The position numbers and the translations under genes are program-made. Source: the human T2T-CHM13v2.0 reference genome, Homo sapiens. From it: a stretch of 64,000 nucleotides of DNA. The DNA lies in assembly GCF_009914755.1 (NCBI RefSeq), contig NC_060936.1, one strand, 5' to 3'. The notes under the pieces are model-generated. The model made no database searches. It was not told the origin of the DNA and was given only the letters and a program-made list of their open reading frames with translations. Every line of letters starts with the position of its first letter. The stretch's first letter is position 1. Positions 12,389-39,196 of the stretch are shown piece by piece.

Positions 12389-12781
12389 CCTGCAGAGCGA
12401 AGTCCATGATGCTCGGGTCGAGGGCATCCACCTCAGTGTTCATGTCGGTGCTGATGTTGATGAAGTCTACAGGAGCCCTTCCCATGGCGGGGTGGGGGAG
12501 CGGGCTGGGGCTGAGGTCCGGCAGGGCGTGCAGTGGCGGGGTCTGGGCTGGTGCTGGAGAGTCTGGAGCAAGATGTGCCTGGGGCTGGACCTGGTGGTGC
12601 AGGGGGACTGACTGCAGGGACAGGGTCATCAGTGGCTGGGGTGGGAGCTGGGAGACAGCCAGGCAGCCATGCGCCACGGCCACTGTGGTGGCGTGAGTCA
12701 GCACGGGGGCCTCTGGTTCCCCCGGTTTGCCGGGGCGCCGGCAGCTTTCAGGCCGGTCGGAGATCAGCTTGTCCAACTCCT
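12389..12781 (-). CDS. FOXN4: FOXN4 exon 9 (E-ELDKLISDRPES...MNTEVDALDPSIMDFALQ-G)
   Basis: Acceptor cctgCAG|AG; donor CAGG|GTGAGG; 393 nt; matches ORF 12366..12854. Confidence 0.96.
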
Positions 12782-13158
12782 CTGCAGGCAAGTGGGAGAG
12801 GTCACTCAGAACCCACCCAGCAGTTACCGGGCCCCAGCCCAGGCCTGGGTTCAAATTCCAGTGTCACCACCTGTGTGACCTTAGCAAGCCTCTTGGACAC
12901 TCAGAACCTCTGTCTCCTCACCTATGAAATGACACAGGCATCATCTCATCTCACAACTTACATTGCCACCCATTGTAAATGAAGGTGTCTATTAAATACT
13001 TCTCTGCGTCCTAGCCCATGCTGGGTGTCAATATTTTATTATTTTAAACATCTCTGCCCATCTAGCAAAACATCATACCCTCTGCACACGGTTGTTGTGG
13101 AAATGTAACAAAATCACAGACTGTGCAGAATCTTTGAGGAATAAGAGACGACATCAAA

Positions 13159-14457: not shown

Positions 14458-14836
<379 letters not shown>

Positions 14837-15407
14837 TAACCAACCCCTATTGTGAGATGTCTGGACTGCTTTCTGTGTTTCACTCTTAGAAATAATTTTG
14901 TGATGGATAACTTTGTTCACAAACCTTCTGCTCAAATCTTTGCTCTTCACAGTACACATCATCAGAAGTAGAATAATTGGACCAATCCATGGGTACCATT
15001 TGCAGGTGTTTGATATATTAGCTTTCCCTCAAAAAGTTTAACAGCTTAAATTCCTATCCATTATATACGAAGCTCTCTATTGTTCCACATCCTAGCCCAC
15101 ACTGAGTGTTACTATTTTAAACATCTCTGACAATGTGGTAGGAAAGCAATGTGTAACCCATGGTTGTGTAGTTTGGCATTTCTGGGCAAGAAACTATGGA
15201 TGACAAGTGAGATCCAACAGCTTTTCCTGTTTTTGATCAGGCCCCTCTACTACTCCTGCCACTGGATAGGGTTGGGGAGGGGGAGGCCTATTTCATAGGA
15301 GGGAGGGAGGTTTGCCAGACGCCTGTCTTCCCATCATCCTGGCTGAGAAGTGTTGGAGACTGGGTAGGGCATAGGCAGAGCTGGGGCTGGGCTGGGAGGA
15401 GGGGCGC

Positions 15408-16221
15408 GTGGTGTGTGTGTGCATGCATATGTGTGCGTGCATGTGTGCGTGTGCGCACACACTAGGGGCTGCCCGGGCCTCTTGGCCATGCTCTGGTGGA
15501 TGGTGGCCAGGTCCTTCCTCTTCCACTTGTGTGTGCGCACGTGTGTGTGCGTGCGTGTGTGTGTGCGCGCTGTGGGCTGTCCGGGCCTCACCAGAGTTGG
15601 CCATGCTCTAGTAGATGGTGGCTAGGTCCTTCCTCTTCCACGTGTGTGTGCGCACATGTGTGTGTGTGCATCCAGGCCTCACCGGGGTTGGCTACGCTCC
15701 GGTGGATGGCGGCCAGGTCCTTCCTCTTCTGTGTGTGTGTGTTTGTGCATTTGTGTGCATTTGTGTGTGTGCGCACATGCTGTGGGCTATCTGGGCCTCA
15801 CTGGGGTTGGCCATGCTCCAGTGGATGCCAGCCAGGTCCTTCCTCTTCTGCGTGTGTGTGTGCACGCATGTGTGTATTGGTCTGTGTGTGCATTTGTGTG
15901 TGTGTGCGTGCTGCAAGCTGTCTGGGCCTCACCGGGATTGGCCATGCTCCAGTGGATGGCAGCCAGGTCCTTCCTCTTCTGCGTGTGTGCGTGCATTTGT
16001 GTGCACAGGTGTGTGAGTGCATTTGTGTGTGTGCGCGCATGTGTGCATCTGGGCCTCACTGGGGTTGCCCATGCTCCGGTGGATGGCAGCCAGGTCCTTC
16101 CTCTTCTGTGTGCGTGTGCGTGTATTTGTGTGTGTGCGCATATTTGTGTGTGTGCGCGTGCGTATGCATCGGCTTCACCAGGGTTGGCCATGCTCTGGTG
16201 GATGTCGGCCAGGTCCTTCCT

Positions 16222-16263
<42 letters not shown>

Positions 16264-16340
16264 CTGCGGGCTGTCCGGCCCTCACCAGGGTTGGCCATAC
16301 TCCGGTGGATGGCAGCCAGGTCCTTCCTCTTCCACTTGTG
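15408..16340 (-). repeat. Composite minisatellite: native exon-8 end plus 7 intronic copies of [exon-8 3' end + 5' splice site + CA-rich spacer]
   Basis: Unit core GGCCATGCTCCGGTGGATGGCAGCCAGGTCCTTCCTCTTC (plus strand) recurs with a period of 91-131 bp, separated by TG-rich spacers. Confidence 0.97.
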
Positions 16341-16493
16341 CATCTCCTCCTCCATCTTGTCGATGCGGGCCAGGTTCAGAGCCCACAGGCAGCCCTTGCG
16401 GGAGGAGCCGCTCATCTTGTTCTCCACCTTCTCGAAGCACTTGTTCAGAGACAGGTTGTGCCGCACCGAGTTCTTCCACCCGTCGGGGGCCGT
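16286..16493 (-). CDS. FOXN4: FOXN4 exon 8 ([70 protein letters not shown]), forkhead recognition helix and wing
   Basis: Acceptor cttcaTAG|ACG; donor CTG|GTGAGG; 208 nt; [10 protein letters not shown] signature. Confidence 0.97.
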
Positions 16494-16732
16494 CTATGAA
16501 GACACATGGGCATTCAGAGGCCTCCCTGTAAGCCCTTCCCCCTACCCCGGGGATCTCCTACTCAGGCCTATAGGGGCAGGACACCGCGGTGGCAGGAGTA
16601 ATTTGACAGTGCCTGACACTCAGCCTCAAGTTGGAGAGACAAGAGAGAGTGCTGGGGACTGAGGCCAACTGGTGTGGCCATGCCCTGATGAGAGGGGAAC
16701 TACAGTTCAGCTCTGGCCAACTGTTACTATAG

Positions 16733-17021
<289 letters not shown>

Positions 17022-36740: not shown

Positions 36741-39196
36741 CCTTGAATCCACGTGAACAGGAAAGGCTTGTGCCAGACCAGGAGCCTGGGCACCTCTGGA
36801 TCCAGTGCTGATGGGAACAGGCCTGCTTCTCCTCCCCACTCCCCAACTCCTGACCCCTGCTAGCTCGGCAGTGGACTGGCTAGGCATTGCCAGGCCCCCA
36901 AGAAGTTCTCTGCTTGCCCCGCCCTGTTTTTGGAGAAGGGCAGTTGCTTAGTGCCCCCAGACAGTTTGTCAGCTGGGTGGCCCAGATGAACAAGGTCAAG
37001 ACTCCGGGGCTGAGTCTGATGGGAGCCCCTCCTGGGCAGCACCTGGGCACCTGGATTCAGGGTTTCTCCCACCCTCCAAGTTCCTCCCCACTTCCCACCG
37101 TGAGAGCCCTCCATAGACGCGTCTCTTGCGGGAAGCTGGACTCTCTAATGTAACTAAGTGGTAACAGCAACAGCAACTACTGATTATGTGTTTCTTGCTC
37201 TACAAGCTTTATTTACTTAATCCTCCCAGCAACTGCATGAGGGAAGAGCTGTGATCATGCCCATTTTAAAGATGAGAAACAAAAGCAAGTCACCGGCCCT
37301 GCCTAAAGCTGGGCTTTGAACCTGCACGTGTCTGAATCCTAGCAATTGTTCTCACTCTCTGACTCCCCTATCTCCAGTGCTTTTAAGGGGTGCTTTTAGG
37401 CAACAGTAAGATTCAATGTCTTTGAGCTCTTAAAGCCAACCTGGAGGAAGGATGCGCTCGCCCAGGCTTGCAGCTAGGAGGGCAGAAGTAGATTCACCCT
37501 GGATACATTCAGTGCCTGCTGGGTGTCAGGTGCCTTCATAGATAATATGATACATATATCATTTAACCCTCCAGAGCTAGCTTTTACTATCCCCATTGCA
37601 CAAAACTATGAAAGTTCACAGGTGAATCTGCTCATAATTGGTGAATGGCAGAGCCAAAAATGATTACTAAATTGTCATAACAACTCCATGCAGTGGGTAT
37701 TATTTCTATCCCCATTCTACAGATGAAGAAGCTGAGGCTCAGAGAGCTCCACGTAGCCAGAGAAGTTGGGATTATAATGGACTTGAGAGCCTAAGCTGCT
37801 AACCCTTACACTGCCACTAAATCACTTGGCATTATTTAAACCCTGAGAGTGCTGGAAGGAAGCCTAGAGGCCCTTGGCTGTGTGATCTTGGGAGAAGCCA
37901 TTTCATTTTTCTAAGCCTCAGTTTCCTCACCTATACAACAGGGCTCATCAGAGCAACCTCCCGAGATGAGGTGAGTGATGGGGGATGGCACACAGTAGGT
38001 GCTTGCAAACTGCCACGTACCTGGCCCCAGCTCTGCACACAGCAGGCTCTCTGCAAATATCTGTTTGAATCTGTGTCCTCGTTTGGATCTCAGAAGGCAG
38101 CTTCCAGGCCCACAGCCCTCAGGAAGCAGCCTCCCTCTAATTGCGGGCTGCGGTCTGTCCCAGCAGGCACTCCTGGTGAGTTGCAGTGACCCCGGGGGGG
38201 CCAGACAAACCCTGGGTAAACAGGGCTGATAGGAGGTGACAGCCTGCTCTTCCCAGGCCAGCCCTGGTCCTGTCCCCATTCCGTAATCTGGACTGTGCCC
38301 CCTCAGCCTACAGACATGTTGCTTGCTCTGTCGGGGGAGCCCTGGAAACGAGGTCAGGGCTCCCTGGCCTCAAGGGGAAAGAGGCCGGGAGGGGACTCCA
38401 GGTCCTTCCTTTTCCTCCTTTTCCCTCCTGGAGACCTTGGACAAGCCCTTTCGCCTTTCTTGGCCTCAGTTTCCCCAACTGTAAAAAAAATAGGGGGTGC
38501 GCAGACTGGTTGACCTCCTAAAGGCCTTTTTGGCTATGATGTTTGAAGACAAAAAAAGACAGAAGGGCTCTGAAGGCTTCCATGCATCCTCTCAGTTGTA
38601 CCTTGCTTCACCCTGTTTCAAGGCCTCAGTTTCCATCTAATTTACTCTTCAAACACATGAGGCCTAGAAGAAACCTTAAGATCATCTACTTCAACAAGAT
38701 CAATTAAATGATGAGGAAGTGAGGCCCAGGGCAAAGGACTTGCTGAATGTCACACAGCCTGGCTGAGAACTTAGCGTATCTGACTACTTTCTTAACATCT
38801 GTGGAGGATAGAACCCAATTCCTCCCAGAAGGTTTTTTTTTGGCAGGGGGTGGGGGAGCATTTCCCACAGCCCCCATTAAGGCCACTGGAGGGGAAGCAG
38901 TAGCTGCTATTGTCATCTTAACATTCACCAGGATGCCCAAACAGTATCAAATGCAGAAACGGACCTCTTTTGGAGGGGACAAGAGACAGCAGGCATTTCG
39001 TGGTCCCACTGGGCCAGGTTGTGGCCCAGACACCCTTAGCAAGACCAACATTGAAATCAAGACTTTCCAGCTCTCCCGCAAAAATCACAGAATTGAACAT
39101 AACAATAGTTCTTGGGCAGTTTCAGAAACCATAAACAGCATACAAACACTTTGAGCAATTAAAAAATATATAGTTTGTTATTGTTGGAGCCCTCAC

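What the first reader, a model, noticed from the sequence alone, without database searches (positions are those of the whole stretch)
15408..16340. Intron-8 array of duplicated exon ends: a battery of 'poison' 5' splice sites directly behind the forkhead exon
Seen: immediately after the native exon-8 donor (GT at 16285) lie seven tandem copies of the last ~46 nt of exon 8 (encoding [15 protein letters not shown] variants). Six keep a GT donor: 16178 (CTG|GTGAAG), 16059 (CCA|GTGAGG), 15932 (CCG|GTGAGG), 15801 (CCA|GTGAGG), 15682 (CCG|GTGAGG) and 15591 (CTG|GTGAGG, the same 9-mer as the native site). The seventh copy (~15481) lost its donor through a ~7-bp deletion. Reading frames were worked out by hand. 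Donor +107 reads exon 9 as AGG AGT TGG ACA AGC TGA. Donor +226 reads CAA GGA GTT ... GCC TGA. All more distal donors include the in-frame TGA at 16058-16056. Every alternative donor therefore gives a stop far upstream of the last exon junction. Established: such stops trigger NMD, and decoy 5' splice sites can promote intron retention. Inference: the array may be a variable-length rheostat on FOXN4 dose. If NMD is escaped, it would yield a protein with an intact forkhead domain but no C-terminal region, a candidate dominant negative. I do not know of a description of this structure.
Basis: partly seen in the sequence, partly recalled or inferred. Interest (0 to 1): 0.88.

Follow-up and report, generated by a model that had tools for sequence, protein, structure and literature searches.

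The report
FOXN4 exon-end minisatellite with pseudo-donors
The end of FOXN4 exon 8 and its splice donor are repeated seven more times in the following intron, a real but already known kind of minisatellite in which the extra donor sites usually stay silent.

Summary
On the minus strand, window 16340-15408 holds 8 head-to-tail units of 91-131 bp. Each unit is the last 47-53 nt of FOXN4 exon 8, a 5' splice site and a CA-rich spacer. Unit 1 holds the native donor; 6 of the 7 intronic units keep GT and the last lost it to a 7-nt deletion. All six alternative donors give stops 359-857 nt before the last exon junction.

A minisatellite whose first unit spans an exon-intron boundary is described for F7, IFI6, CBS, LMNB2 and PDGF (PMC1557585). 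In F7 the pseudo-sites are functional but silent and the most upstream site wins; IFI6 and CBS use only the two nearest. Here the two nearest donors are the weakened ones (U1 duplex -5.4 and -5.1 versus -8.6 kcal/mol). The donors are no better conserved than their neighbours. Every pseudo-donor lies between CA tracts, the layout reported for hnRNP L repression. No supplied RefSeq exon uses them. Units differ by 10-29%, so a variable-length rheostat is unlikely.

Best reading: an old, largely silent minisatellite, a new member of a known kind. Expression, polymorphism and orthologues could not be tested.

The parts
16286..16493 (-). FOXN4 exon 8 (208 nt). It encodes the C-terminal half of the forkhead domain, and its last 47-53 nt are the template of the repeat.
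   Evidence: Supplied RefSeq table. Pfam Forkhead matches residues 3-47 of 69. Sequence.
16234..16340 (-). Unit U0 (107 nt): exon end, native donor CTG|GTGAGG (GT at 16285-16284), 22 nt of intron and a pure CA repeat.
16227..16257 (-). Pure dinucleotide microsatellite of 15.5 units, read as CA in the RNA. It starts at +29 of the native donor.
   Evidence: TRF period 2, 15.5 copies, 100% matches. Position.
16115..16233 (-). Unit U1 (119 nt). Pseudo-donor CTG|GTGAAG at 16178 (+107), weakened at +5.
   Evidence: U1 duplex -5.4 versus -8.6 kcal/mol for the native donor.
15988..16114 (-). Unit U2 (127 nt). Pseudo-donor CCA|GTGAGG at 16059 (+226), weakened at -1. The TGA at 16058-16056 stops every longer exon extension.
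   Evidence: -5.1 kcal/mol.
15857..15987 (-). Unit U3 (131 nt). Pseudo-donor CCG|GTGAGG at 15932 (+353), as strong as the native donor.
   Evidence: -8.8 kcal/mol.
15738..15856 (-). Unit U4 (119 nt). Pseudo-donor CCA|GTGAGG at 15801 (+484), weakened at -1.
   Evidence: -5.1 kcal/mol.
15647..15737 (-). Unit U5 (91 nt). Pseudo-donor CCG|GTGAGG at 15682 (+603).
   Evidence: -8.8 kcal/mol.
15532..15646 (-). Unit U6 (115 nt). Pseudo-donor CTG|GTGAGG at 15591 (+694), the same 9-mer as the native donor. The exon-like part holds an in-frame TAG.
   Evidence: (-8.6 kcal/mol).
15408..15531 (-). Unit U7 (124 nt). The exon-like part begins with the same CACAAGTGG as the exon. The donor is lost through a 7-nt deletion. 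The CA-rich tail ends the array.
   Evidence: alignment.
12389..12781 (-). FOXN4 exon 9. Its acceptor (...CCTGCAG|AGGAG) is the single 3' splice site that all eight-unit donors would have to join.
   Evidence: Supplied RefSeq table..

Best explanation
This is an old, diverged minisatellite whose first unit spans the FOXN4 exon 8 / intron 8 boundary. It probably arose by tandem duplication at a CACA microhomology between the exon (..CACAAGTGG..) and the intronic CA repeat, and was then amplified. Each intronic unit carries a purine-rich, enhancer-like 15-mer, a 5' splice site and a CA-rich spacer.

In normal splicing the native, most upstream donor is chosen. Three things favour it. It alone completes a 208-nt exon with the exon 8 acceptor (exon definition, or 5'-to-3' 'oriented scanning' as shown for F7). 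The two nearest pseudo-donors are weakened. Every pseudo-donor lies between CA tracts on both sides, the layout in which hnRNP L is reported to repress cryptic 5' splice sites, whereas the native donor has CA repeats only downstream.

The pseudo-donors are therefore latent cryptic sites. Rare use gives NMD substrates, and they would be activated if the native donor were mutated. The array is not a tuned dosage device.

Shown here: the anatomy, the reading frames, the relative U1 pairing, the CA layout and the lack of extra conservation at the donors. Inferred: silence of the pseudo-donors, hnRNP L involvement, the origin mechanism and the age.
For: Anatomy and uniqueness:
- The 8 units are aligned.
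- The unit occurs only at this locus in the whole assembly. All 10 matches lie in C12:109259482-109260340 (the tool scores only the best candidates).
- The FOXN1 paralogue has the same exon end and donor context but no array.

Origin:
- U7 and U6 begin with CACAAGTGG and CACACGTGG, so each spacer joins the exon-like part inside a CA/CACA overlap.

Drift:
- The intronic copies carry 24 nonsynonymous, 17 synonymous and 1 stop codon change relative to the exon.
- CpG-decay variants (CCG to CTG or CCA; CGG to TGG or CAG) differ between units.
- Mean pairwise difference is 0.068 at non-CpG exon-derived columns and 0.177 over the core to +24.

Donor strength and conservation:
- U1 duplex energies are: native -8.6; +107 -5.4; +226 -5.1; +353 -8.8; +484 -5.1; +603 -8.8; +694 -8.6 kcal/mol.
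- The donor 9-mers differ from the majority in 10 of 63 cells, 5 of which are the U7 deletion. The rest of the exon-derived part differs in 22 of 203 cells. No excess conservation is seen.

CA layout:
- Spacers have 53-63% of their bases in CA dinucleotides, against 16% in the rest of intron 8.

Precedent:
- F7 pseudo-sites are functional but silent and the most upstream site wins. LMNB2 (100-bp unit) and PDGF (81-bp unit) use only the authentic site. IFI6 and CBS use only the two nearest pseudo-sites (PMC1557585).
- hnRNP L represses cryptic exons through CA repeats near the 5' splice site, and binding across a 5' splice site can block U1 (PMC5959245, passages).

Annotation:
- The supplied RefSeq table lists no exon of any of the 5 transcripts ending inside 15408-16285.
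Against: - No RNA data were available, so silence of the pseudo-donors is inferred from precedent and annotation only. NMD targets of a rarely expressed gene are easily missed by annotation.
- Three pseudo-donors pair with U1 as well as the native site does.
- Each pseudo-donor is preceded by a purine-rich 15-mer that is invariant in all 8 units. A run of 15 invariant columns has P=0.0044 by column shuffling, or 0.025 without 6 CpG columns. The test was chosen after seeing the data, but it hints at constraint or gene conversion that pure drift does not explain.
- Predicted local RNA accessibility does not favour the native donor. Mean unpaired probability is 0.21 for the native site against 0.18-0.49 for the copies.
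- IFI6 and CBS show that such pseudo-sites can be used constitutively.
Confidence: 0.6

Rival explanations
1. The pseudo-donors are used, or bind U1 non-productively, at an appreciable and possibly regulated level. FOXN4 transcripts are thereby diverted into NMD or intron retention, so the array lowers or tunes FOXN4 dose.
For: - All six donors give stops 359-857 nt before the last junction.
- Three have U1 pairing equal to the native donor.
- Each follows an invariant purine-rich 15-mer.
- IFI6 and CBS use their two nearest pseudo-sites (PMC1557585 Introduction).
- Decoy exons promote intron retention (PMC6097662 abstract).
- Four inner units also have CAG|AAGAGG, giving possible 46-nt mini-exons.
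- The same intron holds an annotated 51-nt alternative exon with an in-frame TAA, so unproductive splicing of this intron is at least annotated.
Against: - In F7, LMNB2 and PDGF the pseudo-sites are silent.
- The two nearest FOXN4 pseudo-donors are the weak ones.
- The stronger ones would need internal exons of 561-902 nt. Such lengths are poorly defined (F7 Discussion, and recalled exon-definition work).
- The donors are not better conserved than neighbouring positions.
- The possible acceptors have CA-rich tracts that are 40-50% pyrimidine with 1-2 T.
- No supplied RefSeq exon uses them.
- The 'variable length' element is doubtful because units differ by 10-29%.
Confidence: 0.15
2. The opposite sign. 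The array helps exon 8. The downstream CA repeat (through hnRNP L) and the downstream U1-binding pseudo-sites act as an intronic enhancer platform that strengthens recognition of the rather weak native donor.
For: - By U1 duplex energy the native donor (-8.6) is weaker than 5 of the other 8 FOXN4 donors (-9.5 to -11.6) and stronger than 3 (-7.1 to -7.5).
- A pure CA repeat of 15.5 units starts at +29.
- U1 binding downstream of a natural 5' splice site enhances exon definition in PAH exon 11 (PMC5933811 abstract).
- Hui et al. [quoted passage not shown]
Against: - The PAH site lies at +17 to +20, far closer than +107.
- Only the first CA tract is near the native donor, so seven further units would be superfluous.
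- FOXN1 splices the same exon end without any array.
- No binding data are available.
Confidence: 0.15
3. A function at the DNA level. The eight invariant GAGGAAGG-containing 15-mers, spaced about 120 bp apart, are transcription-factor sites (the resemblance to ETS-type GGAA cores is recalled, not tested) in an intronic enhancer.
For: - The supplied RefSeq functional-element table lists an enhancer at 15962-16805. It overlaps exon 8 and the first three units.
- The 15-mer is invariant in 8 of 8 units.
- CpG observed/expected is 0.51 in the array against 0.17 in the rest of intron 8.
Against: - The enhancer annotation covers only part of the array and also the exon.
- No motif scan or binding data were available here.
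- Low mutability of a CpG-free purine tract, or gene conversion from the constrained exon copy, also explains the invariance.
Confidence: 0.05

Closest known systems
F7 intron 7 (IVS7) 37-bp VNTR minisatellite (Borensztajn et al. 2006, PMC1557585)
   Same: The first unit spans the exon-intron boundary, so the authentic donor is followed by reiterated 5' pseudo-sites, all facing one acceptor. The most upstream site is the annotated one.
   Different: - F7 units are 37 bp, contain only 4 nt of exon and are identical at the donor. Five to nine copies are polymorphic.
- FOXN4 units are 91-131 bp, carry 47-53 nt of exon including a purine-rich 15-mer plus a CA-rich spacer, differ by 10-29%, and have donors of graded strength.
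- F7 behaviour was tested with 50 constructs. FOXN4 is untested.
LMNB2 (100-bp unit, 10-15 repeats) and PDGF intron 4 (81-bp unit, 16-18 repeats) boundary minisatellites, as summarised in the Introduction of PMC1557585
   Same: Long units of about 100 bp that reiterate the donor. Only the authentic donor is reported to be used.
   Different: These are known only from that summary. Their unit composition and divergence were not examined here.
IFI6 (6-16) intron 2 and CBS intron 13 boundary minisatellites, as summarised in the Introduction of PMC1557585
   Same: The reiterated donors lie behind the authentic one.
   Different: There the two nearest pseudo-sites are used constitutively. In FOXN4 the two nearest are the weakened ones, and every use would shift or stop the frame.
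hnRNP L-repressed cryptic exons with CA repeats near the 5' splice site (McClory, Lynch and Ling 2018, PMC5959245)
   Same: CA-repeat clusters lie next to cryptic 5' splice sites, and use of those sites would give premature stops.
   Different: hnRNP L binding at FOXN4 is not shown. In the published set the CA repeats are mostly inside the cryptic exon, within 50 nt of the donor. In FOXN4 they lie about 55-60 nt upstream and 15-31 nt downstream of each pseudo-donor.
Decoy exons that promote intron retention (Parra et al. 2018, PMC6097662)
   Same: Intronic exon-like modules with splice sites that give unproductive products.
   Different: Decoy exons are highly conserved cassettes with U2AF-bound acceptors. 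The FOXN4 units have poor CA-rich acceptor tracts, and their conservation could not be tested.

Membership tests
Minisatellite whose first unit spans an exon-intron boundary (F7 IVS7 type) | Head-to-tail array that begins inside the exon and continues into the intron | tested here: met
   8 units from 16340 to 15408, with no gap between them.
Minisatellite whose first unit spans an exon-intron boundary (F7 IVS7 type) | The authentic 5' splice site lies in the first unit and is reiterated in later units | tested here: met
   6 of 7 intronic units keep GT with 7 to 9 of 9 positions equal to the native 9-mer. One unit lost it by a 7-nt deletion.
Minisatellite whose first unit spans an exon-intron boundary (F7 IVS7 type) | Only the most upstream site (or that plus the one or two nearest) is used physiologically | not testable with these tools
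   No RNA data. The supplied RefSeq table shows only the 16285 donor among 5 transcripts, which is consistent but weak.
Minisatellite whose first unit spans an exon-intron boundary (F7 IVS7 type) | Copy number polymorphic in the population (VNTR) | not testable with these tools
   Only one assembly is held. Unit divergence of 10-29% argues for low instability. The pure CA repeat of 15.5 units is the more likely variable part.
Unproductive splicing coupled to NMD (poison site or poison exon) | The alternative site gives a stop more than 50-55 nt upstream of the last exon junction | tested here: met
   359-857 nt for all six donors.
Unproductive splicing coupled to NMD (poison site or poison exon) | The isoform is observed, and is stabilised when NMD is blocked | not testable with these tools
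   No expression data. The literature searches found no report for FOXN4.
Unproductive splicing coupled to NMD (poison site or poison exon) | The element is conserved beyond the neutral expectation | tested here: inconclusive
   Within the array the donors are no better conserved than neighbouring positions (5 of 54 against 20 of 201 cells). The upstream 15-mer is invariant (P=0.0044 and 0.025). Orthologues are not available.
hnRNP L / CA-repeat splicing regulation | CA repeats or CA-rich clusters close to the regulated splice site | tested here: met
   Spacers have 53-63% of bases in CA dinucleotides against 16% background. The first run of at least 3 CA units starts at +15 to +31 of each donor.
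hnRNP L / CA-repeat splicing regulation | hnRNP L binding, and a splicing change on its depletion | not testable with these tools
   No CLIP or knock-down data are available here.

The most novel reading that the evidence does not exclude
The array is a conserved, multivalent splicing-control module. It would consist of eight invariant purine-rich enhancer-like 15-mers, U1-binding pseudo-donors of graded strength and hnRNP L-binding CA tracts. Together these would hold intron 8 in a detained or unproductive state until a cell-type signal releases it, sharpening the brief FOXN4 pulse in retinal progenitors and multiciliated-cell precursors. The length of the pure CA repeat at +29, rather than unit number, would be the variable dial.
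Probability: 0.1. Interest if true: 0.6.

Novelty: new member of a known kind. Interest (0 to 1): 0.3.

Why it matters
If the best reading holds, the array matters in three practical ways:
- It is a set of latent cryptic donors. A variant that damages the native exon 8 donor would be expected, as in F7 deficiency, to shift splicing to a pseudo-donor or to skip exon 8. Both outcomes disrupt the frame.
- It is a trap for read alignment and variant calling at a coding exon end.
- It is a natural test bed for 5' splice-site choice. The pseudo-sites come with their own exon-like context, graded U1 pairing and CA tracts, which is richer than the F7 model.

If pseudo-donor use turned out to be substantial or regulated, it would add an unproductive-splicing layer to a developmental transcription factor.

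Tried and rejected
- Rfam scan of 14800-17000: 0 of 15 listed matches reach their family's gathering score. The hits inside the array are low-complexity TG-rich miRNA or snoRNA look-alikes.
- RNA accessibility as the reason the native donor wins: not supported. Mean unpaired probability is 0.21 for the native donor and 0.18-0.49 for the copies.
- Dispersed repeat or transposon origin: rejected. The unit matches only this locus in the assembly (the tool scores only the best candidates).
- Inheritance from the FOXN1/FOXN4 ancestor: rejected. FOXN1 has the same exon end but a short intron without an array.
- Inner units as 46-nt poison mini-exons (CAG|AAGAGG...donor): judged unlikely. The tracts before the AG are 40-50% pyrimidine with 1-2 T, and the exons would be very short.
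- Telescripting, meaning protection from intronic polyadenylation: four AATAAA signals lie in intron 8 at 14836, 14768, 14319 and 13040, all downstream of the array. Nothing links them to it, so this was not pursued.
- A proximity bias in which donors are weakened: 3 of 6 are weak, including the two nearest. By my own combinatorial estimate the chance is about 0.2, which is not significant.
- Literature for this FOXN4 array:
  - FOXN4 + VNTR gave 3 papers.
  - FOXN4 + tandem repeat + intron gave 5 papers.
  - FOXN4 + splice/isoform/nonsense-mediated gave 3 papers that hold FOXN4 among the 15 listed. One was opened and uses FOXN4 only as a cell marker.
  - For some searches and the other papers only listings and abstracts were seen. 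None concerns the FOXN4 repeat.
- Splicing-associated tandem-repeat catalogue (PMC10078293): FOXN4 has 0 occurrences in the main text and in 10 supplementary files. File 1 could not be searched.
- A recalled example of a VNTR that adds splice sites in CUL4A: the search found 2 papers, neither relevant by title and abstract, so it is not used.
- Two paper searches failed on term syntax and were re-sent in corrected form.

Full report
**Observation**

Read on the gene's strand, window 16340-15408 is a head-to-tail array of eight units.
- The 15-mer GAAGAGGAAGGACCT starts at 16332 in exon 8, and at 16225, 16106, 15979, 15848, 15729, 15638 and 15523 in intron 8.
- An 18-mer search allowing 3 mismatches found 9 matches in the 64-kb window. 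Eight lie in the array with at most 1 mismatch. The ninth is an unrelated 2-mismatch hit at 38397-38414. Chance expectation was 0.11, and 0 of 100 shuffles reached 9.
- Tandem Repeats Finder gives periods of 107, 119, 131 and 210, with 65-80% matches.
- The last unit lacks its donor because of a 7-nt gap.

The hand-worked frames also hold.
- The annotated CDS gives 517 aa.
- The +107 donor ends in ...RSWTS* and the +226 donor in ...RPA*, both in exon 9.
- All longer extensions stop at the TGA at 16058-16056.
- The stops lie 359-857 nt before the last exon junction.

Exon 8 carries Forkhead profile positions 44-87 of 88 in residues 3-47 of its 69 codons. The repeated part therefore starts just behind the domain.

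**Anatomy**

Units are 107, 119, 127, 131, 119, 91, 115 and 124 nt long. Each has four parts:
1. A purine-rich 15-mer.
2. About 30 nt more of exon-derived sequence.
3. A 5' splice site.
4. A spacer of 38-78 nt in which 53-63% of the bases lie in CA dinucleotides, against 16% in the rest of intron 8.

Behind the native donor the spacer is a pure dinucleotide repeat of 15.5 units starting at +29.

Two sub-types of unit exist. U0, U3, U4, U6 and U7 keep about 10 nt of intron sequence that U1, U2 and U5 lack.

The closest pairs are U3-U4 (p=0.097), U6-U7 (0.108), U0-U7 (0.123) and U2-U5 (0.139). Other pairs reach 0.29. The edge units thus resemble the exon copy most.

**Origin and age (inference)**

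- U7 begins with the same CACAAGTGG as the exon, and U6 with CACACGTGG. Each CA spacer therefore joins the exon-like part inside a CA/CACA overlap. This fits duplication by slippage or unequal exchange at that microhomology.
- The unit occurs nowhere else in the assembly. All 10 matches lie in the array (best candidates only).
- The FOXN1 paralogue has the same exon end and a similar donor but a short intron without an array. The array arose in the FOXN4 lineage.
- All 7 intronic copies read AGC where the exon reads AGT, so the exon changed after the duplication.
- The copies carry 24 nonsynonymous, 17 synonymous and 1 stop codon change, and different CpG-decay variants in different units. They have drifted without coding constraint.
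- Mean pairwise difference at non-CpG exon-derived columns is 0.068. With recalled primate neutral rates of about 0.5-1 x 10^-9 per site per year, that suggests tens of millions of years. Gene conversion could distort the estimate. Orthologues could not be fetched.

**Donor strength and selection**

Duplex energies with the recalled 5' end of U1 snRNA are as follows:

| Donor | kcal/mol |
|---|---|
| native | -8.6 |
| +107 | -5.4 |
| +226 | -5.1 |
| +353 | -8.8 |
| +484 | -5.1 |
| +603 | -8.8 |
| +694 | -8.6 |

- The two nearest pseudo-donors are weakened, one at +5 and one at -1. The -1 changes are CpG-decay transitions. With 3 of 6 donors weak, this placement is not significant (about 0.2 by my own count).
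- Among the 7 intronic copies the donor 9-mer differs from the majority in 10 of 63 cells, 5 of them the U7 deletion. The rest of the exon-derived part differs in 22 of 203 cells. Keeping GT in 6 of 7 units is what drift at this divergence would give.
- The one unusual feature is the 15-mer, invariant in 8 of 8 units. A run of 15 invariant columns has P=0.0044 by column shuffling, or 0.025 when 6 CpG columns are removed. The test was chosen after seeing the data. Low mutability of a CpG-free purine tract, or conversion from the constrained exon, could also explain it.
- Predicted local accessibility does not favour the native donor.

**What is known**

The architecture is in print. Borensztajn et al. 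2006 (PMC1557585; abstract, Introduction, one Results section, Discussion and the CV method section read) describe the F7 intron 7 minisatellite.
- Its first 37-bp unit spans the exon-intron boundary.
- Its pseudo-sites are functional but silent.
- Exon skipping rises as the first usable site moves further away.

Their Introduction lists the same layout in four other genes:
- IFI6: 25 pseudo-sites, the two nearest used.
- CBS: two pseudo-sites used.
- LMNB2: 100-bp units, only the authentic site used.
- PDGF: 81-bp units, only the authentic site used.

For FOXN4 itself I found no description.
- Searches. One of the papers found was opened and uses FOXN4 only as a cell marker.
- The splicing-associated repeat catalogue has 0 occurrences of FOXN4 in its main text and in 10 supplementary files. 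One file could not be searched.

**Mechanism**

The best-supported reading is that the native donor wins for three reasons:
1. It alone closes a 208-nt exon with the exon 8 acceptor. The pseudo-donors would need exons of 315-902 nt.
2. The two nearest competitors are weak.
3. Every pseudo-donor lies between CA tracts, while the native donor has them only downstream.

McClory et al. 2018 (PMC5959245; abstract and passages) report that hnRNP L represses cryptic exons through CA repeats near the 5' splice site, and that binding across a 5' splice site can block U1. The pseudo-donors would then be latent cryptic sites. hnRNP L binding here is inferred, not shown.

**Rivals**

Three donors are as strong as the native one, each follows an invariant purine-rich element, and IFI6 and CBS show use of such sites.
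- The opposite model is that the downstream CA repeat and U1 sites help a rather weak native donor. It is suggested by PAH exon 11 (PMC5933811, abstract).
- A DNA-level enhancer role rests only on the supplied RefSeq enhancer interval 15962-16805 and on the invariant 15-mer.

**Limits**

- No RNA-seq, CLIP, population or orthologue data could be reached.
- MaxEntScan and SpliceAI were not available. U1 duplex energy is a crude stand-in.
- Supplements of bioRxiv papers were closed.

**Verdict**

The frame and NMD logic is correct. The claim of a new structure and the rheostat idea are not supported. This is a new member of a known kind and is probably silent. It is of modest interest as a natural model of 5' splice-site choice and as a set of cryptic sites relevant to donor variants.

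Noticed in passing
window 12871-12921 (minus strand), intron 8 of FOXN4, 89 nt upstream of exon 9: The 51-nt alternative exon listed for other RefSeq transcripts has a good acceptor (..TTTCATAG|) and donor (CAG|GTGGTG). If it is spliced between exons 8 and 9 it reads GEETEVLSVQEAC* with an in-frame TAA. It is therefore a candidate poison exon in the same intron. The structure of the transcripts that use it was not available.
   Followed up: partly
window 16227-16257: A pure dinucleotide repeat of 15.5 units (CA in the RNA) starts 29 nt downstream of the native exon 8 donor. It is the part of the array most likely to vary in length between people, and it sits where intronic CA repeats are reported to affect splicing.
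   Followed up: partly
window 16318-16332 and the seven intronic copies: The purine-rich 15-mer GAAGAGGAAGGACCT is invariant in all 8 units, while the flanking exon-derived positions have drifted. P=0.0044, or 0.025 without CpG columns; the test was chosen after seeing the data. This remains unexplained. Constraint, gene conversion or low mutability are all possible.
   Followed up: partly
window 16105-16060, 15978-15933, 15847-15802, 15728-15683 (minus strand): In the four inner units the exon's GTGGAAG has become CAG|AAG. This creates an AG directly in front of the exon-like part and so four potential 46-nt mini-exons. The tracts before the AG are CA-rich with only 1-2 T.
   Followed up: partly
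window 16863-17000 (intron 7): A sub-threshold match to Metazoan SRP RNA (32.1 bits against a gathering score of 70) together with mir-3135 and mir-1268 look-alikes. This is most likely an Alu-derived element.
   Followed up: no
L002 1501-1707 (G000 C17:29476951-29477157): The homologous FOXN1 exon is 80% identical at the protein level. It ends ..CCAG|GTGAGGCC and is followed by an intron of only about 170 nt before the next coding exon, with no repeats.
   Followed up: yes
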